From IMG/VR virus record IMGVR_UViG_3300009285_000009, positions 1-53,575 of that record: a stretch of DNA of 53,575 nucleotides; one strand, 5' to 3'. How positions within the stretch are numbered: position 1 is the first letter of the stretch; every line of letters starts with the position of its first letter. Origin of the DNA: a virus. Both the position numbers and the translations under genes were made by a program. The notes under the pieces were generated by a model that did no database searches, had not been told where the DNA came from, and saw only the letters and a program-made list of their open reading frames with translations. Shown here in pieces: positions 426 through 46,618 of the stretch.

Positions 426-1130
426 ATGGCATTAAATAAAGCACGGGGGAATATGTATGAATTCCTGAACGAAAACGGCAGAGGTTATACTTGGAATGTC
501 ATTAAGGGTATTTGCCCCCACGATTGTATTTATTGCTATATGAAACGATTCCCGCAGAAGGCATTACGATTTGATGAGCAGGAATTGAATACTAATCTGG
601 GTAAGGATAAATTTATATTTGTAGGGAGCAGTTGCGATATGTGGGCAACCGGAATACCAAACGAACAGATAAAAAGAGTGCTTGACCATTGTCTGAAATA
701 TCCAGATAATAAGTATTTATTCCAGAGCAAAAATCCATATAGATTCCAAACCTTCGCCTGTGCCTTTCCGTTAGGGTCAATATTGGCTACCACCATAGAA
801 AGCGATACCAATTATAAGATGGGTATTCCCGGAGTGGAAGAGCGGGCGAAAGAATTATGGAAAATGAAACAATCAGGATTTAAGACGATGGTCACGATAG
901 AGCCGATTATGGATTTTTCTGTATGGGGTTTTATTACTCTTATAAAACGATATGAACCTAATTGGGTTAATATCGGGGCTGATACCGGCAATAATAATCT
1001 GCCAGAACCATCTGGCACAAAATTAAGGGAATTCCTTGTGCAATTAAAGGCAAGCAAAATAGAGGTGAAACAGAAAAACAACCTGTCAAGATTACTATGG
1101 GATGAGGTGAAAAATGAACCAAGAAAATAA
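426..1130 (+). CDS. radical-SAM enzyme, SplB/DNA-photolyase-like candidate
   Basis: CxxxCxxC cluster motif in NVIKGICPHDCIYCYMKRF; track ORF begins at TTG 417, but ATG 426 follows the aaggag RBS and the stop of the previous gene. Confidence 0.7.
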   Translation: MALNKARGNMYEFLNENGRGYTWNVIKGICPHDCIYCYMKRFPQKALRFDEQELNTNLGKDKFIFVGSSCDMWATGIPNEQIKRVLDHCLKYPDNKYLFQSKNPYRFQTFACAFPLGSILATTIESDTNYKMGIPGVEERAKELWKMKQSGFKTMVTIEPIMDFSVWGFITLIKRYEPNWVNIGADTGNNNLPEPSGTKLREFLVQLKASKIEVKQKNNLSRLLWDEVKNEPRK

Positions 1131-2799: not shown

Positions 2800-3663
2800 A
2801 TGAATGATATATTGAAATGCAATATGGCTAACATCAATTCGGATATTAATCTATTCGGGGAAAAGACCGATAGATTATCAATGCGGGAACGAATAGGATT
2901 CCTGCCGATAAGCATATGGCAACCTGATTGGTCAATCACTAAGAAACTGAAGGAAATCGTAGGGGATAACTCACAAACAAGGGAGGGCAAAACAAAAACC
3001 ACCTATAATACAGCTATAGGGAATAGGGATAGTAATATCTCTGTTTTCAATCCGCATTTAGCCCAGATGATATTATCAGCATATTGTCCGGCGAATGCTA
3101 ATATATACGACCCCTTCGCTGGCGGGGGAACAAGAGGATTCATTGCCGTAGCAATGGGGCATAAGTATAGCGGAAGCGAAATTAGGGCTGAAGAAGTAAA
3201 CAGGACAAACGAACAGATGAAGATTCTGAATAAGCCCTTTACCCTTAAATGCGAGGATAGCAGGATATACTCATTCGGGGAAGAAGAATTTGACTTCAGT
3301 TATACCTGCCCCCCATACTATAACCTTGAGGTATATTCTAAGATGCCGGGGGATATAAGCAATGCCGATACCTATGAACAATTCATTGCAATGCTTATGG
3401 ATTGTATGTCAGGGGTATACAAAGGGTTAAAGCATAATTCCCTATCTGTATGGGTAGTAGGGAACTTCAGAGATAAGCAGGGCTACCTTATCCCCTTCAA
3501 TAGCGATTTGATAAGGATAGCCGACAGCATAGGATTTAAGCTCCACGATGAATTGATATGGTGGGGAGCAAGCAAGTGTGCATCCCAACGATGCGGGCAA
3601 TTTGAAGCGAATAGAAAATCAGTCAGGGTTCACGAATATATCATAATTTTGAAGAAATCGTAA
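2800..3663 (+). CDS. DNA N6-adenine/N4-cytosine methyltransferase (motif I before motif IV)
   Basis: SAM motif IYDPFAGGGTRG followed about 65 aa later by catalytic CPPYYN (D/S/N-PPY variant). Confidence 0.8.
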   Translation: MNDILKCNMANINSDINLFGEKTDRLSMRERIGFLPISIWQPDWSITKKLKEIVGDNSQTREGKTKTTYNTAIGNRDSNISVFNPHLAQMILSAYCPANANIYDPFAGGGTRGFIAVAMGHKYSGSEIRAEEVNRTNEQMKILNKPFTLKCEDSRIYSFGEEEFDFSYTCPPYYNLEVYSKMPGDISNADTYEQFIAMLMDCMSGVYKGLKHNSLSVWVVGNFRDKQGYLIPFNSDLIRIADSIGFKLHDELIWWGASKCASQRCGQFEANRKSVRVHEYIIILKKS

Positions 3664-3692
3664 CCCGGCAGAATAGCGGAAGAACCGAGTTT

Positions 3693-4292
3693 ATGCCGAA
3701 GAAGATAAAAGCAAGGAAGAAGCCCTACGTAAGCGTAGCAGTAATACCGCCCATAGAAGAACGCAAGAAATGGCAAAGGGTTAATTGGGATACTGTAGCA
3801 TCAGCATATATTACCCGTGATGATTTGCCATCATATGATTACTTGGCTAAGGAATTCGGTATCCACGTAAGCAGTATGCAACGGGTAGCCCACAGAGAAG
3901 ATTGGATAACCCAGAGGAAGATATATTGGGAAAAGGTGGGCATAAAGATGCAGGAAAAGGCAAGCAATAAAGTAGCCGAAATGCGTGCTAAGAATATAGT
4001 TATAGCAAATAAGGCGTTAGAGTATCTGGGGGAATTATTACAGAATAAGTCATTGAATGGGTCTATTAGTGATATAGATAAGATTATCCGCACAATAGAA
4101 TACCTGAATGGCAATCCTGATAGCAGACCTGATGGCGGTGGCTCATTTGAAGAATTCCTTAAACGATTAAATGCTGAACGCAGGAAGGCATATAAGGATT
4201 CAATGGGAGTGAATAATGTGATTGATGTTACGGTAAGCAAAGGGGAAGACGATGATACTGGTAAAAGACCTGATAAGCCAGATAACAAATAG
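3693..4292 (+). CDS. terminase small subunit candidate
   Basis: Basic N-terminus, HTH-like YDYLAKEFGIHVSSMQRVAHRE, acidic tail; positioned upstream of the large terminase; positional call only. Confidence 0.5.
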   Translation: MPKKIKARKKPYVSVAVIPPIEERKKWQRVNWDTVASAYITRDDLPSYDYLAKEFGIHVSSMQRVAHREDWITQRKIYWEKVGIKMQEKASNKVAEMRAKNIVIANKALEYLGELLQNKSLNGSISDIDKIIRTIEYLNGNPDSRPDGGGSFEEFLKRLNAERRKAYKDSMGVNNVIDVTVSKGEDDDTGKRPDKPDNK

Positions 4293-4500
4293 GGCGGTAG
4301 GGTATATACCGTGCTTTGATGAATGGCTTCTGGCACATAAGGGTAAGCCGTTAGCCATAAGGCATAGTGTGATTAATAGGGTAAAGGATTGTATATGTGT
4401 TGCCGAGGTATATACGATAATCTGTAGTTGCAATGAATGCGGTGATGAATATACGGTGATATTGGAGTATAAAATAAATAATAATCCTATAAATACTTGA
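4252..4500 (+). CDS. hypothetical Cys-rich 82-aa protein
   Basis: ATG 4252 after aagggga RBS; overlaps previous gene by 41 nt; CICVAEV..CSCNECGDEY. Confidence 0.35.
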   Translation: MILVKDLISQITNRAVGYIPCFDEWLLAHKGKPLAIRHSVINRVKDCICVAEVYTIICSCNECGDEYTVILEYKINNNPINT

Positions 4501-4524
4501 CAAAACTAAAAATAAGTATAATAT
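4497..4524 (+). promoter_or_regulatory. sigma70-like promoter P0 (TTGACA-16 nt-TAATAT)
   Basis: -35 TTGACA 4497..4502, -10 TAATAT 4519..4524; upstream AATAAT..ACTTGACAA resembles the early-promoter box. Confidence 0.5.
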
Positions 4525-4527
4525 GGG

Positions 4528-4640
4528 TATTATGAGAGCAATGGGTATAACAGAAATAAAAATAAATCAAAGGGGGCGTGGTGCATTTCCTGTATCACAC
4601 AGAAAAACCTATTGCTCTCACAATAAGTAACCACGCTCCC
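4528..4640 (+). ncRNA. structured 5' leader with interleaved stems (pseudoknot-like), copy 1
   Basis: S1 4528..4542 pairs with 4611..4625 (14 bp, 1 mismatch). S2 4572..4582, inside the S1 loop, pairs with 4630..4640 (11 bp, one G-U). 4-nt junction. Confidence 0.45.
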
Positions 4641-4665
4641 ATTATCACTGAAAGGACACATATAT

Positions 4666-6369
4666 ATGATAGAATCCTTAACTTCCGAGCAGGAATTAAA
4701 ATTAAAAGAATACGAGGATAAGTGGACGGCAATCGGTCTGGATACTACGCAGTTTAATGAATCTATCGCAAGACCGATTATCAATAATTTGTATACCGAG
4801 ATATTAGATTACCCTAAAAACCCATTTTTATATATTGCCGAATCCCCGATAGAGGCGTGGTTTGCAGTGATGTTTTTGTATTCTATAATTGAGGACGCTA
4901 AGGTCTGGGATAAGGTCGGGGATAAGGTCGGGGCTAAGGTCGGGGCTAAGGTCAGGGCTAAGGTCGAGGCTAAGGTCAGGGATAAGGTCAGGGATAAGGT
5001 CGGGGATAAGGTCTGGGCTAAGGTCAGGGATAAGGTCGGGGATAAGGTCTGGGCTAAGGTCTGGGATAAGGTCAGGGATAAGGTCGGGGATAAGGTCTGG
5101 GCTAAGGTCTGGGATAAGGTCAGGGCTAAGGTCGGGGATAAGGTCAGGGCTAAGGTCTGGGCTAAGGTCGAGGCTAAGGTCGGGGATAAGGTCAGGGCTA
5201 AGGTCGAGGCTAAGGTCAGGGATAAGGTCAGGGATAAGGTCGGGGATAAGGTCTGGGCTAAGGTCAGGGATAAGGTCGGGGATAAGGTCTGGGCTAAGGT
5301 CTGGGATAAGGTCAGGGATAAGGTCGGGGATAAGGTCTGGGCTAAGGTCTGGGATAAGGTCAGGGCTAAGGTCGGGGATAAGGTCAGGGCTAAGGTCTGG
5401 GCTAAGGTCGAGGCTAAGGTCGGGGATAAGGTCAGGGCTAAGGTCGAGGCTAAGGTCAGGGATAAGGTCAGGGATAAGGTCGGGGATAAGGTCTGGGCTA
5501 AGGTCAGGGATAAGGTCGAGGCTAAGGTCAGGGATAAGGTCAGGGATAAGGTCGGGGATAAGGTCTGGGATAAGGTCTGGGCTAAGGTCAGGGCTAAGGT
5601 CTGGGCTAAGGTCGAGGCTAAGGTCGGGGATAAGGTCAGGGATAAGGTCTGGGATAAGGTCAGGGATAAGGTCGGGGATAAGGTCTGGGCTAAGGTCAGG
5701 GATAAGGTCGGGGATAAGGTCGAGGCTACTTTACCAAATTTTATATACCCCAACATAGATGGGAATTTCTCAGTAAATTATTTTGCTTTTTATGATTTTA
5801 TGCAGGAAGTAATTGGTGTTGAAATATATAATCTCGTAGGGTTATATAATATATACAAGGATACGACTAAATTATCGTTAATTTATCCCTTTGAGGATTG
5901 GTGTGTTGTATGCCAGAAGCCAACAATTATTAATCTTAAAAATAATGAACTTCACAAAGACGGAGGAATGGCTTTAGAATATAGCGATGGTTTTGGATTG
6001 TGGTGTCTTAACGGAACATCTGTAAGTCAAGAAATTGCAGAAACTCCGGCAGAGAAATTACCAGCCACTTTAGTATTGTCTGAAAAAAACGCAGAAGTTC
6101 GGCGTGAGATAGTCAGGAAAATAGGTATAGAGAGGGTCTGCAAAGACCTTAACTCCAAGATTATAGATACAGGAATAGACCATAAGGGCAACTTATGTGA
6201 ATTGCTTGTGCTTGATATTGGGGACGGCAGACAAAGACCATTTATCAAACTGGTAAATCCAAGTATCGGATGTTATCATATAGAGGGGGTGCATCCTGAT
6301 TGTGACACGATTGAAAAAGCATTTAACTTCAGGAATGGAACAATAGAAAAACCAATTTTATTAACTTAA
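4666..6369 (+). CDS. DUF6745-like protein carrying a 69-unit [D/A]-K-V-[G/R/W/E] tetrapeptide array
   Basis: aaagga RBS. N-terminal LTSEQELKLKEYEDKWTAIGLDTT; C-terminal LHKDGGMALEYSDGFGLWCLNG...NAEVRREIVRKIGIERVC, recalled from the bacterial DUF6745 family. Central perfect tetrapeptide periodicity. Confidence 0.85.
   Translation: MIESLTSEQELKLKEYEDKWTAIGLDTTQFNESIARPIINNLYTEILDYPKNPFLYIAESPIEAWFAVMFLYSIIEDAKVWDKVGDKVGAKVGAKVRAKVEAKVRDKVRDKVGDKVWAKVRDKVGDKVWAKVWDKVRDKVGDKVWAKVWDKVRAKVGDKVRAKVWAKVEAKVGDKVRAKVEAKVRDKVRDKVGDKVWAKVRDKVGDKVWAKVWDKVRDKVGDKVWAKVWDKVRAKVGDKVRAKVWAKVEAKVGDKVRAKVEAKVRDKVRDKVGDKVWAKVRDKVEAKVRDKVRDKVGDKVWDKVWAKVRAKVWAKVEAKVGDKVRDKVWDKVRDKVGDKVWAKVRDKVGDKVEATLPNFIYPNIDGNFSVNYFAFYDFMQEVIGVEIYNLVGLYNIYKDTTKLSLIYPFEDWCVVCQKPTIINLKNNELHKDGGMALEYSDGFGLWCLNGTSVSQEIAETPAEKLPATLVLSEKNAEVRREIVRKIGIERVCKDLNSKIIDTGIDHKGNLCELLVLDIGDGRQRPFIKLVNPSIGCYHIEGVHPDCDTIEKAFNFRNGTIEKPILLT
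4897..5724. repeat. 69 tandem copies of the 12-mer G[A/C]TAAGGTC[G/A/T][G/A]G with a 240-nt higher-order unit
   Basis: 828 nt / 12 = 69 units. 4947..5278 is identical to 5187..5518 (offset 240). All three forward/reverse frames are open as a consequence. Confidence 0.95.
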
Positions 6370-6385
6370 AAGAAAGGGGTATAAA

Positions 6386-6685
6386 ATGTTATACCAACAA
6401 GGCGATGTGATTTTGGAGACGGTGGAAATGATACCGGAAAACCTTAAAACCCATAATGGCGTAATCGCAGAGGGTGAAACTACCGGACACGCCCATCGGG
6501 TGGATTTGAGCGGAGTGGATGTATTCGTGGCTGATGATGGAACTCTTTATTGTGAGGCGATGAAAGAGTTTACCATAACCCACGAGGAACATAAACCCAT
6601 TACCTTGCCGAAGGGAAAATATAAGGTTCGTAAGGTGCTGGAATATGACCACTTTGCGGAGGAGGCAAGAGTGGTAAGGGATTAA
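6386..6685 (+). CDS. conserved small phage protein (QGDV...GETTGHAH motif), function unknown
   Basis: aaagggg RBS; 99 aa; the QQGDVIL and GETTGHAHRV pattern is common in phage hypothetical proteins (recalled). Confidence 0.7.
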   Translation: MLYQQGDVILETVEMIPENLKTHNGVIAEGETTGHAHRVDLSGVDVFVADDGTLYCEAMKEFTITHEEHKPITLPKGKYKVRKVLEYDHFAEEARVVRD

Positions 6686-6695
6686 AAAGTGGTGT

Positions 6696-8306
6696 ATGTT
6701 TAAGTTACCAGAATTAACAACGCCGATTGATTACCGCACATTAGGAAAATACGAAGATATATTCAAACGCCCGGCAAGGTATATCCAGAAATTCCTATGG
6801 ATTAAGAATAAGCATTCTGATATTATACCGTTTTTCTTTAATTCTACACAAGTAAGATACCGGCGGATGAAGCGGATAGAATTAGCAAAGGTCAGGGTTG
6901 TTAACCCTTACGCTAAACCGCATTACCTGGTGCTTAAATATAGGCAGGGCGGAATCACCACAGAGGAACAGGGTGAGAATTTTCATCTCATAGCAACAAA
7001 GGAAAACCAGAATTGCATAACACTGGCGCACGATAAGAAGACAACCGAAGAAATATTTGATATAGCCCAGTTATTTGACCGCAACCTTACGCCCGAAATA
7101 AGACCTAAACGGGACTGGGATAATAAGTCAGAGATAGAATATAAGGGGCTTAATTCCAAGTTTCATATCGGCACAGCGGGTAATACGAGTTTTGGCCGTG
7201 GGCAAACATTCCAAAGGGTTCATCTATCTGAAGTGCCGCTTTATGGCAGGAAAAAGCATCAACATACCATCAGCATATCTGACATACAGAATCTAATATC
7301 AGGCATACTCAGGGCGTGTCCTTATGGCGATGTGGTGGCAGAGGGGACAGGCCAGGGCGCAAAGGGGTGGTTTTATCAGACCTGGAATGAGGCGAAAAAG
7401 AGTAAGTGCCGAAATGGATGGATACCGATATTCCTGCCGTGGTTTATTGACCCACTGAATAGTATGCCATTATTATCCGGCGAGGATATAGAATATACCG
7501 ATGAGGAAAAGATATTAATCAGTAGGGCGAAGGAAAATTATGGCGTAGATATGAAACCGGAACAAATTAAATGGCGCAGGTTTATGAAAGAAGAGGAAAA
7601 ACTCTTTGACCAGGAATTCCCGGAGGACGATATTACGGCCTTTATGGTCTCCGGTTCATCCAAGTTTGATATGTTGATATTAAGGGATTTGGTTAAGGAT
7701 TGCGCCAATCCGGTTGAAGAAAAGATACTTGACGGCGGTAGTTTACTTCAGTGGGTTAAGCCGATAGCCGGTAGGCGGTATGTTATAGGCGCAGATGTAG
7801 GCGAGGGGCTGGCTAATTCTGATTACTCAACTGGGACGGTGCTGGATTACGAGACCTGCGAGCAGGTAGCCCGGCTAATGGGGCGATGGAAGCCGGAAGT
7901 ATTCGGGGTTAAACTGGCTAACCTGGGATTGATGTATAACAAGGCATTGATTGGAGTAGAGGCGAATAACCACGGACATAGCACTCTGAATACTTTGCTA
8001 AATACTTTACACTATCCACGATTATATTATCATAAGAACTATGACAATACTGGCGGCCAACAACTGGGCTGGCAGACCAATGCCAAGACGAGGGATTTAT
8101 TGATAGGCGAACTAAAAACAGCCATAGAAGAATACCTAATGAAAATAAATGATACAGAATTTATTGACCAGTGTATGACATTTCAGGATGATGGGACAGG
8201 CAAGTATCAGGCAGAAGAAGGTTGCTTTGACGATTTGGTTCTGGCATATGCAATTGCTTGGCAACTGCGAAAAGTCCACGGCATAAGTCCGAGAATAACC
8301 ACATAG
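6696..8306 (+). CDS. terL: terminase large subunit
   Basis: 536 aa; ATPase-type KYRQGGITTEEQ segment, LSEVPLYG, C-terminal nuclease-like IGADVGEG and FDDLVLAYAIA. Confidence 0.85.
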   Translation: MFKLPELTTPIDYRTLGKYEDIFKRPARYIQKFLWIKNKHSDIIPFFFNSTQVRYRRMKRIELAKVRVVNPYAKPHYLVLKYRQGGITTEEQGENFHLIATKENQNCITLAHDKKTTEEIFDIAQLFDRNLTPEIRPKRDWDNKSEIEYKGLNSKFHIGTAGNTSFGRGQTFQRVHLSEVPLYGRKKHQHTISISDIQNLISGILRACPYGDVVAEGTGQGAKGWFYQTWNEAKKSKCRNGWIPIFLPWFIDPLNSMPLLSGEDIEYTDEEKILISRAKENYGVDMKPEQIKWRRFMKEEEKLFDQEFPEDDITAFMVSGSSKFDMLILRDLVKDCANPVEEKILDGGSLLQWVKPIAGRRYVIGADVGEGLANSDYSTGTVLDYETCEQVARLMGRWKPEVFGVKLANLGLMYNKALIGVEANNHGHSTLNTLLNTLHYPRLYYHKNYDNTGGQQLGWQTNAKTRDLLIGELKTAIEEYLMKINDTEFIDQCMTFQDDGTGKYQAEEGCFDDLVLAYAIAWQLRKVHGISPRITT

Positions 8307-8325
8307 GATGAAAGAGGGGGGATAT

Positions 8326-8628
8326 ATGGAAGAAACAATGGAGAAATTCAGTTTTGAAAAAGCAGTGAGAAGCATCCTTCTTAAAGAAAAACCCAGTTAT
8401 ATTGAGAGAGAATTTCCTGAAATAATAAAGCGAGAAAACACTATCAAGAAACTAATTGACAAGAATGGGTGTATGTTGGCATTGACAAAAACTGATGCTG
8501 ATGAAATAGTTAAGCAATTTGAAAAAGGGGGTAAGCGGGCTATTGCATTTAATCGGGATGGTGGCTATGCGATTATAGAAATAAAAGCGGATGATAATTA
8601 TCTTGAAATAATAAAAATCGTTTATTGA
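8326..8628 (+). CDS. hypothetical protein
   Basis: ATG 8326 has the gagggggg RBS; an upstream in-frame ATG at 8308 is also possible. Confidence 0.5.
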   Translation: MEETMEKFSFEKAVRSILLKEKPSYIEREFPEIIKRENTIKKLIDKNGCMLALTKTDADEIVKQFEKGGKRAIAFNRDGGYAIIEIKADDNYLEIIKIVY

Positions 8629-10632: not shown

Positions 10633-11358
10633 ATGAACTACCCAGAAGATTACATAGATAAGGTTATACAAGGTGATTGCCTTGAAATAATGAAAGGCAT
10701 CCCAGATAAATCGGTGGACTTGATTCTGACTGACCCTCCGTATGGGATAGATTTCTGCTCGTCCAGGACGAGCAGAAAAGAAAGATTGCAAAACGATAAG
10801 TTAGGCGATTGGCAAGAAATGTTGCCTAAAATGCTAATTGAGTTTAAGCGTATTCTTACGGATACCGGTTGTTGTTGTTGTGGTGGTGGTGGTAAGACCC
10901 CAGTAACCGCATTATTTACCGTTGAGGCGATAAAGCACTTTAACCTTATACAGACGCTTGTATGGCGTAAGTTTATTGGTCTTGGGTGGAAATACCGCCC
11001 GGCTTATGAAAATATAGTTATTTTAAGTAAAAGTAAGGATGAGTATAATTTTTACGATGAGACAAAGAAATGCGGGAATGTTATTGAGGGTATAAATCAA
11101 GACATACCACAATATAACGAACATAAGGCAGGGGGGGTAGATGAACACCCTACGCAAAAGCCAACTGCCTTAATGGAACACTTGATTAAAATACATAGCA
11201 AGCGAAACAACCTAATCCTTGACCCATTCCTCGGAGGTGGGACAACCGCAGTGGCGGCAAAAGAATTAGGACGGCGTTGGATTGGTATTGAGGTCTCTGA
11301 AAAGTATTGTGCTTTGGCACGCAAGAGATTACAATACACAGAGCAACCCCTCTTTTAG
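10633..11358 (+). CDS. beta-class DNA N6-adenine/N4-cytosine methyltransferase
   Basis: Motif IV DLILTDPPYGI first, motif I LDPFLGGGTTAVAAKELGRRWIGIE last (N6_N4_Mtase order). Confidence 0.85.
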   Translation: MNYPEDYIDKVIQGDCLEIMKGIPDKSVDLILTDPPYGIDFCSSRTSRKERLQNDKLGDWQEMLPKMLIEFKRILTDTGCCCCGGGGKTPVTALFTVEAIKHFNLIQTLVWRKFIGLGWKYRPAYENIVILSKSKDEYNFYDETKKCGNVIEGINQDIPQYNEHKAGGVDEHPTQKPTALMEHLIKIHSKRNNLILDPFLGGGTTAVAAKELGRRWIGIEVSEKYCALARKRLQYTEQPLF

Positions 11359-11459
11359 CAAGTCGGCAATATTCGGCAAATACGGAAATCTGCTTGCAAT
11401 GCATTTCTAAATTGTTATATTAAGGTCAACGGATAAAGAATACGATGGTCACGGAAGAA

Positions 11460-15115: not shown

Positions 15116-15136
15116 CAATAAAAGGAGAAAAAGAAT

Positions 15137-27274: not shown

Positions 27275-27645
27275 TCGGCGCAGGGTTCTTGACAGGGGAA
27301 TTAACTCATAACTGCAAAGCGTGCGCCGGTAATGAAAAATGCAAGGTAGAATGGGGATGCAACAAGGATGCGCCTGTAGAGGTATTTACCATAAATTGTG
27401 TCAGGTGTTATGGAAGCGATAAAGATTGTCCGGTATGTAAGGGGAAAGACAGGGAACATTTCTACAGGTGTCCAGTCAAGTTGCTGACCAAAGAAACGTT
27501 GGAGTTTCTTAAATATTACAGATTCTTCAAGGATGGGATTATGCCGGTGGCTGGTGGCGTATATGAACAATCTGGGACATTTATCAGAGCCGTGGAGATA
27601 GTAAATAAGGAATTACAGGAAGCCGAACGAAAGCAGAAAGGTTAG
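27262..27645 (+). CDS. -1 frame extension of the chaperone (gpT analogue), Cys-rich
   Basis: No ATG (track uses TTG 27289). Reads KKLIIGAGFLTGELTHNCKACAGNEKCK...CVRCYGSDKDCPVCKGKD. Ends 2 nt before the tape measure ATG. Confidence 0.55.
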   Translation, partial: KKLIIGAGFLTGELTHNCKACAGNEKCKVEWGCNKDAPVEVFTINCVRCYGSDKDCPVCKGKDREHFYRCPVKLLTKETLEFLKYYRFFKDGIMPVAGGVYEQSGTFIRAVEIVNKELQEAERKQKG

Positions 27646-31047: not shown

Positions 31048-31197
31048 ATGAAAATCAAAGCATTGATTGTTTTCATTTATGGGATGGTCGGGGTGGTGAG
31101 TATTCTTTTATTATCAATCCTTATCAGGTTTTTGGATATAACCAGATGGGGTGCGAATTGGCTTTTTAATAGGATAGAGAATTCTACGAGAAAATGA
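31048..31197 (+). CDS. 49-aa membrane-helix micro-ORF
   Basis: ATG 31048 two nt after previous stop; ATGA overlap with J-like gene; MKIKALIVFIYGMVGVVSILLLSILIRF... Confidence 0.4.
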   Translation: MKIKALIVFIYGMVGVVSILLLSILIRFLDITRWGANWLFNRIENSTRK

Positions 31198-36897: not shown

Positions 36898-37031
36898 GGG
36901 GGCTAAACGATACGCCACAATAGGCGTTCCGATAGGGGTTTAAGGGGCAAGGTGGGGCTGAAACAGCCCAAAAGCGGTTAGATAGGATATGAAACTGCGT
37001 TTAATGCGTTTTAAGCATAAATAAGGATATT

Positions 37032-38579
37032 ATGAGCCAAGATTACGATACTATATCGCCGACCGATGTTTTGACCGATGTCAGGCAGAAGATTCTGAAT
37101 AGGGATGAAGCGGTGCGTTCTTTATTCTTAGGAACTACTGAACCTTCTGTGATGGAAGCCGGGCAACCTTGGATTGATACCACAGCCAATGTAATTAAGA
37201 TTAGGAATAGCACAAATTTGGCTTGGATAACTATTGGTGCTTATAATACACAATTTTCAGACCTGCCATTAGCAGGGGGAACAATGGCTGACAAGATAAC
37301 CCTTGACGGTGTGCCAAGCGACCCTTTACATTGTGTCACCAAGAGTTATATGGATACGTTCCTATTGCTTACTGGTGGAACTTTGGCTGGCGTTCTAAAT
37401 ATGGACACGGCATATAAAATAACCAATGTAGGCACGCCTACGGATTCAGGCGATTTGGCTAATAAAGCGTATGCCGATTCTGGCAAGCCGATAAACTCCG
37501 GCAAGGCGTGGATTTCGCACGGGGATAATGTCATTACTTTAGCGGTAGCCCAGAGCGATGCAAATTATATCGTGCTGGCTTCTTTGGTCAATGCTCCTAT
37601 GGGCGGGATTACCACAAGGGGCAACGGTCATTCTTTTACTGCTGGTCAGGCAGGTAGTCCGTTAGAATTATTAACTACTAACGAAAGCACTACGAGATTA
37701 AAAGTAAGGATAAATGGCGGATATGGGTTTACAAGTGGTGGGTATGTCCCTCCGAATGCAGTAGGCACGACCGAACGTTTTGATGATGTAGCGAATACCC
37801 ATACCGCACGCACTGCATTAACTACAGTAAGGAGATACCTTTCTGAATATTCTTTGAACGGCTATGGCTTTACCACGTGCGGATATATAGCCGCAGTTTC
37901 AGCAGTAACAGAACGGTTTGACGATGTGGCTAATACCCATACAGCGAGAACAGATGCAACGGCAAGATATACACCAGCGGGATATTCACTTAACAACTAT
38001 GGATTTACTTCGTGTGGGTTTATCGCCGCAGTTTCCGGGGTAACCGAACGGTTTGACGATACGGCGAATACTCATACCGCACGCACAGGGGCTACGGCGA
38101 GGCGGTTTACAAATGGATATGCACTTAATAATTATGGGTTTACATCGGGTGGTTTGATTGCTTCACCCACCGGCATTACCGAACGTTTTGATGATGTAGC
38201 GAATACCCATACCGCACGCACTGCATTAACTACAGTAAGGCAATCTATGGGAGAATACTCCACTGGTGGATATGGATTCACCTCTTGTGGTTATAATGCA
38301 GGATATTTAGGCACGACCGAACGATTTGACGATACGGCGAATACTCATACCGCACGCACAGGGGCTACGGCGAGGGCAGGGACTGCTTGTTATTCTCTTA
38401 ATGGTTGTGGCTTTACTTCGTGCGGGGATACAGGCGTTGCTTCCGGGGTAACCGAACGATTTGACGATACGGCTAACACGCAGACCGCACGTACCAATAC
38501 TACCACATCAAGAAATGATTTATCGGGTTATGCTACCAACGAATATTTTATAAACTACGTAACTTTTAATAACGGGTAA
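37032..38579 (+). CDS. tail fibre 2, paralog of fibre 1
   Basis: Same N-terminal motifs (WIDTTANVIKIRNSTNLAW, LPLAGGTMADKITLDG); six to seven blade repeats; 54-nt tract identical to fibre 1. Confidence 0.8.
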   Translation: MSQDYDTISPTDVLTDVRQKILNRDEAVRSLFLGTTEPSVMEAGQPWIDTTANVIKIRNSTNLAWITIGAYNTQFSDLPLAGGTMADKITLDGVPSDPLHCVTKSYMDTFLLLTGGTLAGVLNMDTAYKITNVGTPTDSGDLANKAYADSGKPINSGKAWISHGDNVITLAVAQSDANYIVLASLVNAPMGGITTRGNGHSFTAGQAGSPLELLTTNESTTRLKVRINGGYGFTSGGYVPPNAVGTTERFDDVANTHTARTALTTVRRYLSEYSLNGYGFTTCGYIAAVSAVTERFDDVANTHTARTDATARYTPAGYSLNNYGFTSCGFIAAVSGVTERFDDTANTHTARTGATARRFTNGYALNNYGFTSGGLIASPTGITERFDDVANTHTARTALTTVRQSMGEYSTGGYGFTSCGYNAGYLGTTERFDDTANTHTARTGATARAGTACYSLNGCGFTSCGDTGVASGVTERFDDTANTQTARTNTTTSRNDLSGYATNEYFINYVTFNNG

Positions 38580-45286: not shown

Positions 45287-45330
45287 AATAATATTATTTT
45301 ACTTGACAAATAATAAGATTATGCTAAAAA
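45287..45330 (+). promoter_or_regulatory. early promoter P2 with the same 23-nt box
   Basis: AATAATATTATTTTACTTGACAA 45287..45309 identical to P1; -35 45303..45308; extended -10 TGcTAAAAA 45322..45330. Confidence 0.55.
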
Positions 45331-45355
45331 GGGTTTTAGGAAAGAGAGGGCAATA

Positions 45356-46618
45356 ATGTTAGCAGACATACTACATAAGAACTCTTTGGCGAGGGCGGAT
45401 GAAGCCGGGGAATGGAAATTCTCGCCCCGACCATCATCGGCTGGAACGGAAAGATGCACCCGCCAGATGGTTTATCACGGATGCGAAGTGCCACGTGATA
45501 ATAAAATGTCAGGCAGGATGTATGAAACAATGGATGATTCTTCTTTCCACGAAGAATTGACCATTGACCGCCTGCGTGATAGTGCCTTCAAAATCCATTC
45601 AAGACAGATGGGCATATCAATAGAAGGGATGTTCCCTTCACTTTTGGGCGATAAGCATTGCCGGGAATGTTCTGAAAACTCCAAGGTGGAAATGAAAGTG
45701 CAACGCAGTTGCCTGCACGGGCATATTGATGGTATTATAACCAATCTGATGCTGGAAGATTTATTATTTGAACATAAAGCCATCAATCATTTTACTTGGC
45801 AGAAATACTGGAAGGGCGATGAAATGCCCCTTGATTATATAACGCAATGTGCCATCTATCTAAGGGGATTGCATTTCGTCATCCCGGATATTCGCCGGGG
45901 CGTATTGCTTCTGAAGAATAAGAATACCAGCCAATATATTGAATATATATTGGAATACGATTTTGATAAGGATATTATATCCATAGTGGAAATGGTATCC
46001 TCTATCGGCGATGAACGGAAATACCCTGATTTCAAAATAGAGAATATAGTGCATAACGCAGTAGCCAAATTCAATCAGGTGCTTAAATATATTAATGATA
46101 AGCATCTGCCTAAGCGGGAATACGACCTTGATGATTGGAGATGCGAGTATTGTGGATGGCAGAATACCTGCTGGGCTGATTATCAAAAAGAATTCGGCGA
46201 AATGACTAAGGGCGTTGAATTATCGCAAGATTGCGTAGATGCCTGTGCCTTATTTAATCAGACCAAGGGGCAGATAAGGACGCTTGTAAAAGTGGCTGAT
46301 GATGCCCAAGAACAGGTAAAGCAGATAATGATTGATGCTAATTGCACCGAAGGATATGCCAAACATAATGGCGAAGTATATGCTATTAGCAGAAAATTCG
46401 GTGAATCGCATAGGATAAACAAGGAACTTATCCCGGCTGATATATTACTAAAGGTAACAAAAGTAATCCCTACCGAAACTCTAACGATTAAAAATATAAC
46501 TGAAAAGCCGGAAAACGAAACCAAAGCGGGCAAAAAACCACAACCTAAAAAGCCCGCTAAGAAGGAGGGGGAGGATGGAAAACAAGTTTGCGGTGATAAA
46601 AAACCCAAAGATATTTGA
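45356..46618 (+). CDS. Cas4-like PD-(D/E)xK exonuclease with Fe-S cysteines
   Basis: HGHIDGII...LLFEHKAI (D..ExK); N-terminal TERCTRQ Cys plus C-terminal CEYCGWQNTC (CxxCx5C). Confidence 0.8.
   Translation: MLADILHKNSLARADEAGEWKFSPRPSSAGTERCTRQMVYHGCEVPRDNKMSGRMYETMDDSSFHEELTIDRLRDSAFKIHSRQMGISIEGMFPSLLGDKHCRECSENSKVEMKVQRSCLHGHIDGIITNLMLEDLLFEHKAINHFTWQKYWKGDEMPLDYITQCAIYLRGLHFVIPDIRRGVLLLKNKNTSQYIEYILEYDFDKDIISIVEMVSSIGDERKYPDFKIENIVHNAVAKFNQVLKYINDKHLPKREYDLDDWRCEYCGWQNTCWADYQKEFGEMTKGVELSQDCVDACALFNQTKGQIRTLVKVADDAQEQVKQIMIDANCTEGYAKHNGEVYAISRKFGESHRINKELIPADILLKVTKVIPTETLTIKNITEKPENETKAGKKPQPKKPAKKEGEDGKQVCGDKKPKDI

What the first reader, a model, noticed from the sequence alone, without database searches (positions are those of the whole stretch)
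4666..6369. 69-unit tetrapeptide array ([D/A]-K-V-[G/R/W/E]) in a DUF6745-like protein inserted between the terminase genes
The central 828 nt (4897..5724) of this 567-aa ORF are 69 head-to-tail copies of G[A/C]TAAGGTC[G/A/T][G/A]G. Every copy uses the same AAG GTC codons for Lys-Val. All variation sits at three nucleotide positions and is non-synonymous: Asp/Ala at residue 1 and only Gly/Arg/Trp/Glu at residue 4. The TAG and AAG combinations those positions allow never occur. That pattern fits either concerted evolution with selection on two residues per unit or a targeted diversification process. The globular ends (LTSEQELKLKEYEDKWTAIGLDTT...; ...LHKDGGMALEYSDGFGLWCLNG...NAEVRREIVRKIGIERVC) resemble the bacterial family I recall as DUF6745. 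Members of that family carry similar x-x-V-x tetrapeptide tracts, and no function is known. Here the gene has its own TTGACA promoter and structured leader and interrupts the packaging module. Possible roles are a length-variable decoy or anti-defence protein, or a periodic Lys/Asp nucleic-acid binder or mimic.
Basis: partly seen in the sequence, partly recalled or inferred. Interest (0 to 1): 0.85.

Follow-up and report, generated by a model that had tools for sequence, protein, structure and literature searches.

The report
Tetrapeptide-repeat phage protein with conserved partner
A phage gene carries a real, in-frame run of about 69 four-amino-acid repeats inside a conserved protein of unknown function (Pfam DUF6745); such fast-changing repeat runs are typical of this family, which almost always sits next to a small histidine-rich partner gene, and no function is known for either.

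Summary
Positions 4897-5724 are 69 perfect 12-nt units, G[A/C]TAAGGTC[G/A/T][G/A]G, in frame in a 567-aa ORF. Only 8 unit types occur and none differ synonymously. The C-terminal domain passes Pfam DUF6745 (50 bits against a cutoff of 27).

The array is a family hallmark, not a one-off. 101 of 162 relatives carry x-x-[V/L/I/A]-x arrays at the same site, up to 65 units. Variation concentrates in the first two bases of codons 1 and 4. AlphaFold predicts a helix looped out of one compact core with no PDB match.

Near-identical paralogues in one genome differ about 9-fold more in the array than outside it, and almost only by amino-acid changes. No reverse transcriptase or template copy exists, so slippage, unequal recombination and selection explain the pattern better than targeted mutagenesis.

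- A roughly 100-aa His-rich partner gene (6386-6685) is adjacent on the same strand in 117 of 134 loci.
- Independent assemblies all break inside the array and allow a 42-unit solution, so "69" is not secure.

"Between the terminase genes" is unproven: TerL is confirmed, TerS is not. Function remains unknown. I favour an evolvable interaction module of a mobile two-gene accessory cassette.

The parts
4497..4524 (+). Promoter-like site, TTGACA-16 nt-TAATAT, upstream of the cassette. It may equally serve the downstream TerL and structural operon.
   Evidence: 10 of 12 consensus matches. Such sites are not enriched in the region (12 found, 8.6 +/- 2.5 in shuffles). Function not shown.
4528..4643 (+). 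5' leader with two interleaved inverted repeats: 4528-4546 with 4607-4625 (19 nt, 89% complementary) and 4569-4582 with 4630-4643 (14 nt, 86%). They form either a pseudoknot or mutually exclusive hairpins.
   Evidence: One search gives the arms; each stem is longer than the best stem in all 500 dinucleotide shuffles. MFE -31.4 kcal/mol, z -1.96; no Rfam family. Role unknown.
4666..6369 (+). DUF6745-family gene, 567 aa. It has a Shine-Dalgarno-like AAAGGA 8-13 nt upstream of the ATG.
   Evidence: phrog_31813, E 1e-15; P0317.
4666..4896 (+). N-terminal conserved region, residues 1-77 (LTxEQE...KW..IGLxT...SPxxAW helix). In array-less homologues it packs with the C-terminal part into one compact core.
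   Evidence: A1 consensus. AlphaFold model of array-less P0027: pLDDT 92.5, pTM 0.81. Not covered by the Pfam model.
4897..5724 (+). The array: 69 x 12 nt encoding [D/A]-K-V-[G/R/W/E]. It is predicted helical, has a net charge of +46, and is 55.8% GC against 41.8% for the window.
   Evidence: (helix 61-355 with breaks at 113, 193 and 297; pLDDT about 50-81).
4947..5518 (+). Higher-order repeat inside the array: a 240-nt (20-unit) block present about 2.4 times. Positions 4947-5278 equal 5187-5518 exactly. This marks recent block duplication and cannot be resolved by short reads.
   Evidence: at lag 20, 29 of 49 units identical; 332-nt exact run; 412 of 1073 127-mers not unique.
5725..6366 (+). 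C-terminal conserved domain, residues 354-567. The Pfam DUF6745 match covers residues 405-510 (nt 5878-6195). It contains a MORN-like hairpin (LHKDGGMALEYSDGFGLWCLNG), NAEVRREIVRKIG, NPS and YHIEGV.
   Evidence: invariant H430, G450, N475, R479, R480, E481, K485, G487, N531, P532, S533, E540; MORN-like hairpin hits.
6386..6685 (+). Conserved partner gene, 99 aa (QQGDV...GE[AT]TGHAH...HEEH...EYDHF.EE.R.V.D). It starts 16 nt after the DUF6745 stop and ends 10 nt before TerL.
   Evidence: present in 117 of 134 loci, always on the same strand; 2865 relatives, none with a Pfam domain; only phrog_27831 (unknown function); no Pfam, NCBIfam, PADLOC or PDB hit.
6696..8306 (+). Terminase large subunit. 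Context only: this is the first recognisable late or structural gene.
   Evidence: phrog_2 and phrog_24361; 815 phage records, annotated as terminase large subunit.

Best explanation
The gene is a bona fide member of the uncharacterised DUF6745 family. It forms the larger half of a mobile two-gene accessory cassette (DUF6745 protein plus a roughly 100-aa His-rich partner) that moves among unrelated tailed phages and into bacterial genomes.

SHOWN:
- The tetrapeptide array sits at one fixed site, after the helix SPxxAW... and before FVYPY..DG. In array-less relatives this site is a loop of about 12 residues within a single compact core.
- The array is the family's variable insert, ranging from 0 to about 69 units, with a different unit in each lineage.
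- Within an array the synonymous sites are homogenised. Variation is confined to the first two bases of codons 1 and 4.
- Arrays change faster than their flanks, and almost only by amino-acid replacement and unit gain or loss.

INFERRED mechanism of variation: replication slippage and unequal recombination or gene conversion between 12-nt units and larger blocks (here 240 nt) keep the units alike. These processes also reshuffle, expand and contract the array without changing the reading frame. Selection keeps residue 3 hydrophobic and residue 2 small and polar (Lys in this lineage), and favours diversity at residues 1 and 4.

INFERRED structure: a long alpha-helical excursion, most simply a hairpin, because both ends are anchored in the same core. 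On a helical wheel residues 2 and 3 form a constant face and residues 4 and 1 form a variable, solvent-facing one.

INFERRED function (weakest step): the array is an evolvable, length-adjustable interaction surface on a cytoplasmic protein. That protein acts with its metal-binding-looking partner during the replication or middle phase of infection, in phage-host or phage-phage conflict. It is not a virion part and not a general nucleic-acid mimic.
For: Family membership and conserved flanks.

The array is a family-wide feature at one site:
-.
- of 162 distinct full-length-like proteins, 101 have 4 or more units, 29 have 20 or more, the maximum is 69 here, and the next is 65 (L055).
- Non-repetitive inserts occupy the same site in Ma-LMM01 gp174 and P0030.

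One compact core with a loop at the insertion site: AlphaFold on array-less P0027 gives pLDDT 92.5 and pTM 0.81, with helix 60-71, a loop, then helix 84-99. The array is predicted helical in the window protein.

Codon pattern:
- Mean entropy per nucleotide of the unit over 46 arrays is 0.42, 0.71, 0.22, 0, 0, 0.08, 0, 0, 0.14, 1.26, 0.63, 0.27.
- Pooled codon-4 usage is AGG 213, GGG 199, TGG 189, GAG 86.

Concerted evolution:
- The Lys codon is AAG in 69 of 69 units here, but AAA in 13 of 13 units in the related DKV array of P0003.
- GTC is the rarest Val codon in the window (80 of 804) yet is used in every unit.

Faster, replacement-only change: in paralogous elements more than 10 kb long and 96-99% identical within one Marinacidobacterales genome, arrays have 14 or 17 units. 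Between L091 and L092, 29 of 207 array nucleotides differ (24 of 26 codon changes alter the amino acid). Outside the array 13 of 840 differ (2 of 13 alter the amino acid).

Block duplication: 332-nt exact repeat at lag 240.

No DGR machinery.

Partner and mobility:
- Partner adjacent on the same strand in 117 of 134 loci (76 downstream, 41 upstream). In 13 of the 17 exceptions the DUF6745 gene lies at or within about 800 nt of the 5' end of the locus.
- Neighbourhoods differ between phages.

Expression: Ma-LMM01 gp174 and gp175 both fall in middle class B5 together with replication genes (PMC5780444 supplement).

Charge is kept near zero family-wide.
Against: - No experiment or structural match bears on function. 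Foldseek against PDB and BFVD and profile searches against PDB sequences give only uncharacterised relatives. PADLOC gives nothing.
- The helix prediction for the array has only moderate confidence (pLDDT 50-81). Its topology (three breaks, arms of unequal length) is not resolved, and I could not inspect coordinates.
- A strict 4.0-residue period does not fit a straight coiled-coil seam (3.5-3.67). The hydrophobic stripe would precess about 40 degrees per unit.
- 38% of relatives have fewer than 4 units, and some have unrelated inserts. The array is therefore dispensable for the core function and could be a tolerated expansion.
- Apparent fast change inside arrays may partly be unit reshuffling rather than point substitution.
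- Length differences between short-read assemblies (L001 against L016) may be assembly collapse.
- This lineage's array is strongly basic (+46). A nucleic-acid-binding role for this particular protein is not excluded.
Confidence: 0.55

Rival explanations
1. Neutral minisatellite. The 12-nt repeat is a slippage-prone expansion tolerated in a permissive surface loop. It has no function of its own, and its pattern reflects only the need to avoid stops and keep the loop soluble.
For: - 61 of 162 relatives have fewer than 4 units, and others carry unrelated inserts at the same site.
- Unit number varies enormously.
- Codon usage in the array is not adapted: it uses the rarest Val codon.
- Recent block duplication.
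Against: - The same architecture recurs in lineages whose unit codons have diverged: a hydrophobic residue 3, a constant small polar residue 2 (Lys only in the DKV arrays), a binary residue 1 and a hypervariable residue 4.
- The same residue-4 alphabet (R/G/W/E) also recurs.
- Differences between near-identical paralogues are 24 of 26 amino-acid-changing inside the array, against 2 of 13 outside.
- Net charge is balanced.
Confidence: 0.2
2. Targeted diversification. A dedicated mutagenic system, DGR-like or other, rewrites the three variable nucleotides of each unit.
For: Variation is restricted to 3 of 12 nucleotides and is all non-synonymous. The same nucleotide positions vary across 46 arrays.
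Against: - No ORF of 150 aa or more in the window has a YxDD reverse-transcriptase motif.
- There is no second (template) copy of the unit anywhere in the 53.6-kb window.
- The variable bases are A/C, G/A/T and G/A, not adenine-specific.
- All 8 combinations of the two variable sites occur and exact higher-order blocks are present. That fits shuffling of a small set of pre-existing units.
- The cassette travels without any conserved enzyme other than the 100-aa partner.
Confidence: 0.04
3. Assembly artefact. The long array is created or inflated by the assembler.
For: - Every independent assembly of the same project breaks inside the array.
- L135 has a different interior unit order.
- L141 and L135 overlap by 115 nt, giving a 42-unit solution.
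- A 332-nt exact internal repeat exceeds short-read length.
- The 567-aa product is seen on one contig only.
Against: - Both ends of the array (14.7 and 26 units) are reproduced base for base by independent assemblies.
- Arrays of 40-65 units occur in unrelated contigs.
- Arrays are present in a MAG with megabase-scale contigs.
- The array is in frame with conserved flanks.
- So the array itself is real. Only the count and interior order are doubtful.
Confidence: 0.1
4. Nucleic-acid binder or DNA mimic. The periodic Lys/Arg/Asp helix binds or imitates DNA or RNA, for example as an anti-restriction decoy near the methyltransferase genes.
For: - This array carries 69 Lys and 24 Arg against 39 Asp and 8 Glu, a net charge of +46.
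- Orphan DNA methyltransferases and HNH genes lie nearby in several loci.
Against: - Lys at residue 2 is lineage-specific. Other arrays use Ser, Gln, Asn or Ala there.
- Net charge per unit has a median of -0.035 (14 arrays below -0.25, 59 within +/-0.25, 3 above +0.25). Neither polycation nor polyanion is a family property.
- The methyltransferase is a neighbour within 2.5 kb in only about 5 loci.
- No match to known anti-restriction or defence models.
Confidence: 0.08
5. Toxin-antitoxin, abortive-infection or exclusion cassette. The two genes form a self-contained conflict module, with the variable array acting as sensor or specificity element.
For: - An obligate, tightly linked pair with variable gene order.
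- Mobile among phages, prophage-like repeated elements and bacterial chromosomes.
- Some chromosomal copies lie near an HSP90-like ATPase, SLFN_AlbA_2 and DUF4265 genes.
- This partly overlaps the best explanation.
Against: - No PADLOC, Pfam or NCBIfam hit for either protein.
- No recognisable toxin or nuclease fold.
- In lytic Ma-LMM01 it is expressed with the replication genes.
Confidence: 0.15

Closest known systems
Pfam PF20530 (DUF6745) / PHROG 31813, e.g. Microcystis phage Ma-LMM01 gp174 with its neighbour gp175
   Same: - The C-terminal domain passes the Pfam threshold.
- The AlphaFold model of an array-less homologue matches the Ma-LMM01 DUF6745 protein in BFVD (E 7e-19).
- The same partner gene is adjacent (gp175).
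- The insert is at the same site.
   Different: - gp174 has a non-repetitive insert of about 60 aa instead of a tetrapeptide array.
- Identity is only about 30%.
- Its position is in a replication module rather than upstream of TerL.
- Nothing is known of its function beyond middle-class expression.
Tetra-amino-acid (12-bp) repeats in the central conserved region of type I restriction-modification HsdS subunits (EcoR124I against EcoR124II, TAEL x2 or x3). From my own knowledge (Price et al. 1989, J Mol Biol), not checked here.
   Same: In-frame 12-nt tandem units encode 4 residues of an alpha-helical spacer. Unit number changes by slippage or recombination and alters a helix length without shifting the frame.
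   Different: - HsdS has 2-4 units between two DNA target-recognition domains, and unit number sets the DNA spacer length.
- Here there are tens of units and no HsdS or Methylase_S domain.
- Both ends of the array are anchored in one compact core.
- Two residues per unit are hypervariable.
Pentapeptide-repeat proteins (Pfam PF00805; right-handed quadrilateral beta-helix)
   Same: Very short tandem units with one conserved hydrophobic position and variable neighbours. Common in environmental bacteria and cyanobacteria.
   Different: The period is 4, not 5. There is no Pfam hit. The array is predicted alpha-helical, not a beta-helix.
Diversity-generating retroelement (DGR) variable proteins
   Same: Localised, non-synonymous hypervariation in a phage accessory protein.
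   Different: There is no reverse transcriptase, no template repeat and no adenine specificity. Variation here is combinatorial reshuffling of a few unit types plus changes in length.
Tandem-repeat surface antigens that evolve in concert (Plasmodium CSP NANP/NVDP tetrapeptides, streptococcal M proteins). From my own knowledge.
   Same: Short in-frame repeats, homogenised codons, length polymorphism and a few alternative unit types.
   Different: Those are extracellular immune targets, and the CSP repeats are turn-like or disordered. This protein has no signal peptide, is predicted helical, and is embedded in a conserved intracellular core with a partner.

Membership tests
Pfam DUF6745 (PF20530) | Score above the curated gathering threshold of the Pfam model | tested here: met
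   50.3 bits (C-terminal part alone) and 47.9 bits (whole protein) against a cutoff of 27; E 2.4e-13. The match covers residues 405-510 and profile positions 41-144 of 206.
Pfam DUF6745 (PF20530) | Family-invariant motifs of the C-terminal domain: LH.DG.PA, LNGV, NAEVRRE..RK.G, NPS, YH.EGV | tested here: met
   all invariant columns (H430, G450, N475, R479, R480, E481, K485, G487, L513, N531, P532, S533, E540, P563) are present in the window protein.
Pfam DUF6745 (PF20530) | N-terminal helical region (LTxEQE...KW..IGL.T...SP..AW) joined to the C-domain through the variable insert site | tested here: met
   Consensus of A1. AlphaFold models. Arrays or inserts at the same site in relatives.
DUF6745 + partner cassette (defined here) | Adjacent, same-strand gene of about 100 aa with GD...GE.TGH.H...H.EH...V.D | tested here: met
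   Window 6386-6685. (invariant G6, D7, H35, H37, H66, H69, V97, D99). (117 of 134 loci).
DGR variable protein | Nearby reverse transcriptase and a template repeat; adenine-specific substitutions | tested here: not met
   no YxDD motif in any ORF of 150 aa or more; no other copy of the unit; variable bases are A/C, G/A/T and G/A.
Type I R-M HsdS tetra-amino-acid repeat ruler | Repeat lies between two target-recognition domains of an HsdS (Methylase_S) protein | tested here: not met
   no Methylase_S hit. The flanks are DUF6745 regions that form one compact core.
Pentapeptide repeat family | 5-residue period, A(D/N)LXX consensus, Pfam PF00805 hit | tested here: not met
   Period is 4. No PF00805 hit at E <= 1.
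Known anti-phage defence systems (PADLOC-DB v2) | Match of either protein to a defence-system model | tested here: not met
   no hit at E <= 1 for the partner, the N-domain, the C-domain or the upstream ORF.
Terminase small subunit (claimed upstream neighbour, ORF 3693-4292) | Similarity to a TerS family or to annotated TerS genes | tested here: not met
   only phrog_32085, unknown function, E 2e-4; weak HTH_36, E 0.0066, below cutoff; one weak hit to a hypothetical protein.
Alpha-helical hairpin or coiled-coil insert | Experimentally helical, with the two arms paired | not testable with these tools
   Only an AlphaFold secondary-structure string is available: helix 61-355 with breaks at 113, 193 and 297, pLDDT 50-81. 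The hairpin is inferred from the short loop in array-less P0027.

The most novel reading that the evidence does not exclude
DUF6745 plus its His-rich partner is a previously undescribed, widespread two-component phage conflict (or takeover) system: about 1500 and 2900 protein clusters respectively in the searches run here. Its x-x-[V/L/I]-x array would be a new class of period-4 alpha-helical repeat. It would act as a rapidly evolvable, length-tunable specificity or sensor module, diversified by unit shuffling rather than by a dedicated mutator.
Probability: 0.3. Interest if true: 0.85.

Novelty: new member of a known kind. Interest (0 to 1): 0.6.

Why it matters
The gene itself is a new member of a catalogued but wholly uncharacterised family, and it has the longest array seen here.

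What the follow-up adds is a testable picture of that family:
- a conserved core with a fold that has no PDB match;
- an obligate small partner;
- a single hot-spot loop that has been filled repeatedly with fast-evolving tetrapeptide arrays whose two exposed residues are under diversifying pressure.

If the array is an interaction surface, this would be a simple way for a phage to generate combinatorial protein diversity and length variation without a mutator enzyme. It would be comparable in purpose to DGRs or tail-fibre cassettes, but built on slippage.

The period-4 helical repeat would also interest structural biology and protein design.

Practically, these arrays break short-read assemblies, so the family is probably under-counted and truncated in metagenomic catalogues.

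Tried and rejected
- Rfam over the whole window at gathering thresholds: no hit, so the leader belongs to no known RNA family.
- Megablast of 3600-8400 against INPHARED phages: no close relative.
- Foldseek of the array-less model and of the full model against PDB: nothing below E 0.5.
- Profile searches of both protein families against PDB sequences: 0 hits at E <= 10.
- NCBIfam and PADLOC for both proteins: nothing.
- The Pfam hits in the array region (Cornifin, YpjP, HNOB and others) are low-complexity artefacts.
- Literature searches for DUF6745, PF20530 and tetrapeptide or 12-bp repeats in phages: nothing relevant.
- DGR: rejected.
- Direct or inverted repeats flanking the cassette, as would mark a mobile-element boundary: none of 11 nt or more.
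- Charge-pair statistics (i to i+3 or i+4) meant to support the helix are confounded by differences in composition between arrays. I use them only as evidence for charge balancing.
- DNA-pattern scans for DKV-type arrays in IMG/VR and JGI metagenomes gave mostly single chance matches. Only one informative relative emerged (L158).
- The minus-strand ORF 4809-5756 and the +2-frame ORF 4889-5758 are by-products of a stop-free repeat, not genes.
Full report
**1. The observation**

ORF 4666..6369 (+) encodes 567 aa. Its central 828 nt (4897..5724) are exactly 69 head-to-tail copies of G[A/C]TAAGGTC[G/A/T][G/A]G. Nine of the 12 positions never vary. Position 2 is A or C (39/30), position 10 is G, A or T (26/24/19, never C), and position 11 is G or A (61/8).

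Only 8 unit types occur: DKVR 14, DKVG 12, DKVW 11, AKVR 10, AKVW 8, AKVG 6, AKVE 6, DKVE 2. TAG and AAG never occur at codon 4, and there is no synonymous difference among the 69 units.

Tandem Repeats Finder reports period 12, 68.7 copies, score 1095. The unit pattern matches 73 times (1 mismatch allowed; the 69 array units exactly) against 1.67 expected, and 0 of 100 shuffles reach that. A 20-unit (240-nt) higher-order block is present about 2.4 times, and 4947-5278 is identical to 5187-5518.

**2. How secure is "69"?**

The window is a whole JGI contig, and its 567-aa product is seen only there (P0317). Using the partner protein and the upstream ORF as handles, I found seven other contigs of the same phage from the same groundwater project and others. 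Every one ends inside the gene, and those that extend far enough end inside the array.
- L141 (34.6 kb) reproduces the first 14.7 units exactly.
- L135 (18.8 kb) reproduces everything from 5412 onward (the last 26 units and 5 kb beyond). It has 14 differences in the 129 nt upstream of that point, all at the three variable positions, so its unit order is different.
- The end of L141 and the start of L135 overlap exactly by 115 nt, which would give a 42-unit array.

The internal 332-nt exact repeat is longer than short reads, and 412 of 1073 127-mers across the region are not unique. The array and its alphabet are therefore real. The unit number and interior order are either one assembler's solution or reflect true heterogeneity.

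**3. Family membership**

The C-terminal 214 aa hit Pfam DUF6745 (PF20530) at E 2.4e-13, 50.3 bits against a cutoff of 27, and PHROG 31813 (unknown function) at about 1e-15. A search with the C-terminal domain found 252 relatives, all PF20530. A profile search found 1512.

The N-terminal 77 aa also align with the family (consensus MIxxLTxEQE...YxxKWxxIGLST...SP), although the Pfam model does not cover them. No paper in the library mentions DUF6745 or PF20530.

**4. The array is a hallmark of the family**

Relatives carry x-x-[V/L/I/A]-x arrays at the same place, between the helix SPxxAW... and the motif FVYPYxDG. Examples are NQV[GRWE], [DA]SV[RGW], [DA]NI[RGW], [DA]NL[RWG], SQL[YDNHR], [DRY]QAT and [DA]AA[WR].

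Among 162 distinct full-length-like proteins:

| Units | Proteins |
|---|---|
| fewer than 4 | 61 |
| 4-9 | 34 |
| 10-19 | 38 |
| 20-39 | 24 |
| 40 or more | 5 |

The window's 69 is the maximum and the next is 65 (L055). Some members have a non-repetitive insert at the same site (Ma-LMM01 gp174, P0030).

Net charge per unit has a median of -0.035, and the DKV type of this window (+0.67) is at the positive extreme. Arrays with Asp at residue 1 rarely use Glu at residue 4 and vice versa. That fits charge balancing, though the statistic is confounded by array type.

**5. How the array evolves**

Over 46 arrays the mean entropy per nucleotide of the unit is 0.42, 0.71, 0.22, 0, 0, 0.08, 0, 0, 0.14, 1.26, 0.63, 0.27. 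Variation sits in the first two bases of codons 1 and 4, and third positions are nearly fixed within an array. Pooled codon-4 usage is AGG 213, GGG 199, TGG 189, GAG 86, GTG 39, CGG 26.

Between arrays the synonymous sites do differ. The related DKV array of P0003 uses AAA for Lys in 13 of 13 units, where the window uses AAG in 69 of 69. GTC, used in every unit here, is the rarest Val codon of the window at 80 of 804. This is the signature of concerted evolution.

A Marinacidobacterales MAG with megabase contigs holds at least 8 copies of an element more than 10 kb long and 96-99% identical that carries the cassette.
- Their arrays have 14 or 17 units.
- Between L091 and L092, 29 of 207 array nucleotides differ, and 24 of 26 codon changes alter the amino acid.
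- Outside the array 13 of 840 differ, and 2 of 13 alter the amino acid.

Two phage contigs 99.7-99.9% identical over 13 kb differ by 21 units (L001 against L016), although assembly collapse cannot be excluded there.

The window has no reverse-transcriptase motif in any ORF of 150 aa or more and no second copy of the unit. A DGR-type mechanism is therefore rejected. Slippage, unequal recombination or gene conversion among units and blocks, with selection for diversity at residues 1 and 4, is the best-supported process. Mechanism inferred, pattern shown.

**6. Structure**

AlphaFold on an array-less relative (P0027, 42-sequence alignment) gives pLDDT 92.5 and pTM 0.81. The N- and C-terminal parts form one compact core, and the insertion site is a roughly 12-residue loop between helices 60-71 and 84-99.

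The window protein (pLDDT 81.6) is modelled with the same core and a helix running from 61 to 355, with single-residue breaks at 113, 193 and 297 and pLDDT of about 50-81. Because both ends are anchored at one loop, the array must leave and return. A helical hairpin is the simplest reading (inference).

On a helical wheel residues 2 and 3 (constant) lie at 100 and 200 degrees, and residues 4 and 1 (variable) at 300 and 360 degrees. That gives one constant and one variable face. With 4.0 residues per repeat these faces precess about 40 degrees per unit, so the arms would have to wind around each other or be distorted. This is a testable oddity.

Neither model has a PDB match (best E 0.56 and 1.5). 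BFVD returns only DUF6745 or uncharacterised phage proteins and short MORN-like hairpins.

**7. A conserved partner**

Clustering of neighbouring ORFs showed one recurrent neighbour, a protein of about 100 aa (QQGDV...GE[AT]TGH[AS]H...HEEH...EYD.F.EE.R.V.D). In the window it is 6386-6685, starting 16 nt after the DUF6745 stop and ending 10 nt before TerL.
- With a profile it is found in 117 of 134 loci, always on the same strand: 76 downstream and 41 upstream.
- In 13 of the 17 exceptions the DUF6745 gene lies at or within about 800 nt of the 5' end of the locus.
- Invariant residues are G6, D7, H35, H37, H66, H69, V97 and D99, which looks like a metal site (inference).
- It has 2865 relatives and no Pfam, NCBIfam, PADLOC or PDB match.

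**8. Context**

The window is a siphovirus-like genome: TerL at 6696, portal at 11445, major head protein at 15122, tape measure at 27609, J-like tail fibre at 31173, and replication genes near its end. The cassette lies at the junction between the RusA, methyltransferase and unknown genes and the late operon.

ORF 3693-4292 is not demonstrably a small terminase.

Elsewhere the cassette sits in replication modules (L001; Ma-LMM01 between the UDG and DNA polymerase genes), between a methyltransferase and an HNH gene (L003, the Marinacidobacterales element), or in bacterial chromosomal contigs. In the chromosomal copies only the C-terminal core is conserved, near an HSP90-like ATPase, SLFN_AlbA_2 and DUF4265 genes. 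It is thus a mobile two-gene module.

In Ma-LMM01, gp174 and gp175 are both in expression class B5, the middle class, together with replication and repair genes (PMC5780444 supplementary table).

**9. Promoter and leader**

A TTGACA-16-TAATAT site exists at 4497-4524, but such sites are not enriched locally. The 140-nt leader holds two interleaved inverted repeats, 4528-4546 with 4607-4625 and 4569-4582 with 4630-4643. Each is longer than any stem in 500 dinucleotide shuffles. The MFE z-score is only -1.96, and there is no Rfam match.

The leader is real as a sequence feature, but its role is open. It may be an attenuator or pseudoknot for the cassette, or for the whole late operon.

**10. Verdict**

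- **Observation:** confirmed, with the unit count uncertain.
- **Interpretation:** partly supported. DUF6745 membership, family-wide tracts and concerted evolution with selection are supported. Targeted diversification, "between the terminase genes", and the Lys/Asp binder or mimic as a family property are not.
- **Best explanation (confidence 0.55):** a slippage-driven, selection-shaped, helical variable insert in the larger protein of a mobile two-gene phage accessory cassette. It probably acts as an evolvable interaction surface used in intracellular conflict during the middle phase. The functional part is inference.
- **Novelty:** a new, extreme member of a catalogued but uncharacterised family.
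- **Most novel reading still open (p about 0.3):** the family is a new two-component conflict system with a new kind of period-4 helical diversity module.

Noticed in passing
window 4528-4643: Two interleaved long inverted repeats (19 nt at 89% and 14 nt at 86% complementarity) lie in the leader upstream of the cassette and the late operon. Their topology is a pseudoknot or alternative hairpins. Each exceeds all 500 shuffles, there is no Rfam family, and no U-tract follows.
   Followed up: partly
L158 = L026 (IMGVR_UViG_3300029922_000173) 1-1160: The contig starts inside a [DA]KV[GWR] array of at least 27 units, built from the very same 12-mers as the window (GCTAAGGTCTGG and so on). That ORF stops 12 codons after the array and is followed by a complete, array-less DUF6745 gene. 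The array may exist as a separate ORF or be exchanged as a module.
   Followed up: partly
L209 (Ga0114899_1067784) about 990-1060, minus strand: A tiny ORF of about 50 aa is made almost entirely of DKV/YKV-like tetrapeptide units, outside any recognisable DUF6745 gene.
   Followed up: no
L084, L086, L087, L091-L094, L123 (Ca. Marinacidobacterales MAG CBDFHB01): One genome holds at least 8 copies of an element more than 10 kb long and 96-99% identical. The element carries partner, DUF6745, HNH, C5 methyltransferase and N6/N4 methyltransferase genes and looks like a multi-copy prophage or mobile element. L091 and L093 have identical arrays but 41 differences in the C-domain, which suggests mosaic gene conversion.
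   Followed up: partly
L143 6832-8327; L145 7078-8333: Bacterial chromosomal contigs (291 and 336 kb) carry the pair with only the C-terminal core conserved. These copies have no array and a different N-terminal region, and lie downstream of an HSP90-like HATPase_c_3 gene and near SLFN_AlbA_2, WD40 and DUF4265 genes.
   Followed up: partly
window 4897-5724 and 46 arrays in the loci: C is almost never the first base of codon 4 (0 of 69 here; pooled CGG 26 against AGG 213). Yet CGG makes up 21% of Arg codons elsewhere in the window. This is unexplained: founder effect, mutation bias or sequence avoidance.
   Followed up: partly
window 37862-38221: A 135-nt tandem repeat (2.7 copies, 74% matches) lies inside the tail-fibre-like ORF 37005-38576 (phrog_32680).
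   Followed up: no
window 2800-3663 and 10633-11358: Two orphan N6/N4-type DNA methyltransferase genes flank the packaging region. A Cas4-like exonuclease gene lies at 45317-46615.
   Followed up: no
L141 1-308 against the window ends: An independent 34.6-kb contig extends about 29.5 kb upstream of the window start, and that sequence does not match the window's 3' end. The 53.6-kb window is therefore not the whole genome or a simple circle.
   Followed up: no
L001 10001-10903 against L016 6001-7143: Two phage contigs from different datasets are 99.7-99.9% identical over 13 kb (25 mismatches, no gaps) but differ by exactly 252 nt (21 units) in the array. This is either real length polymorphism or assembly collapse.
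   Followed up: partly
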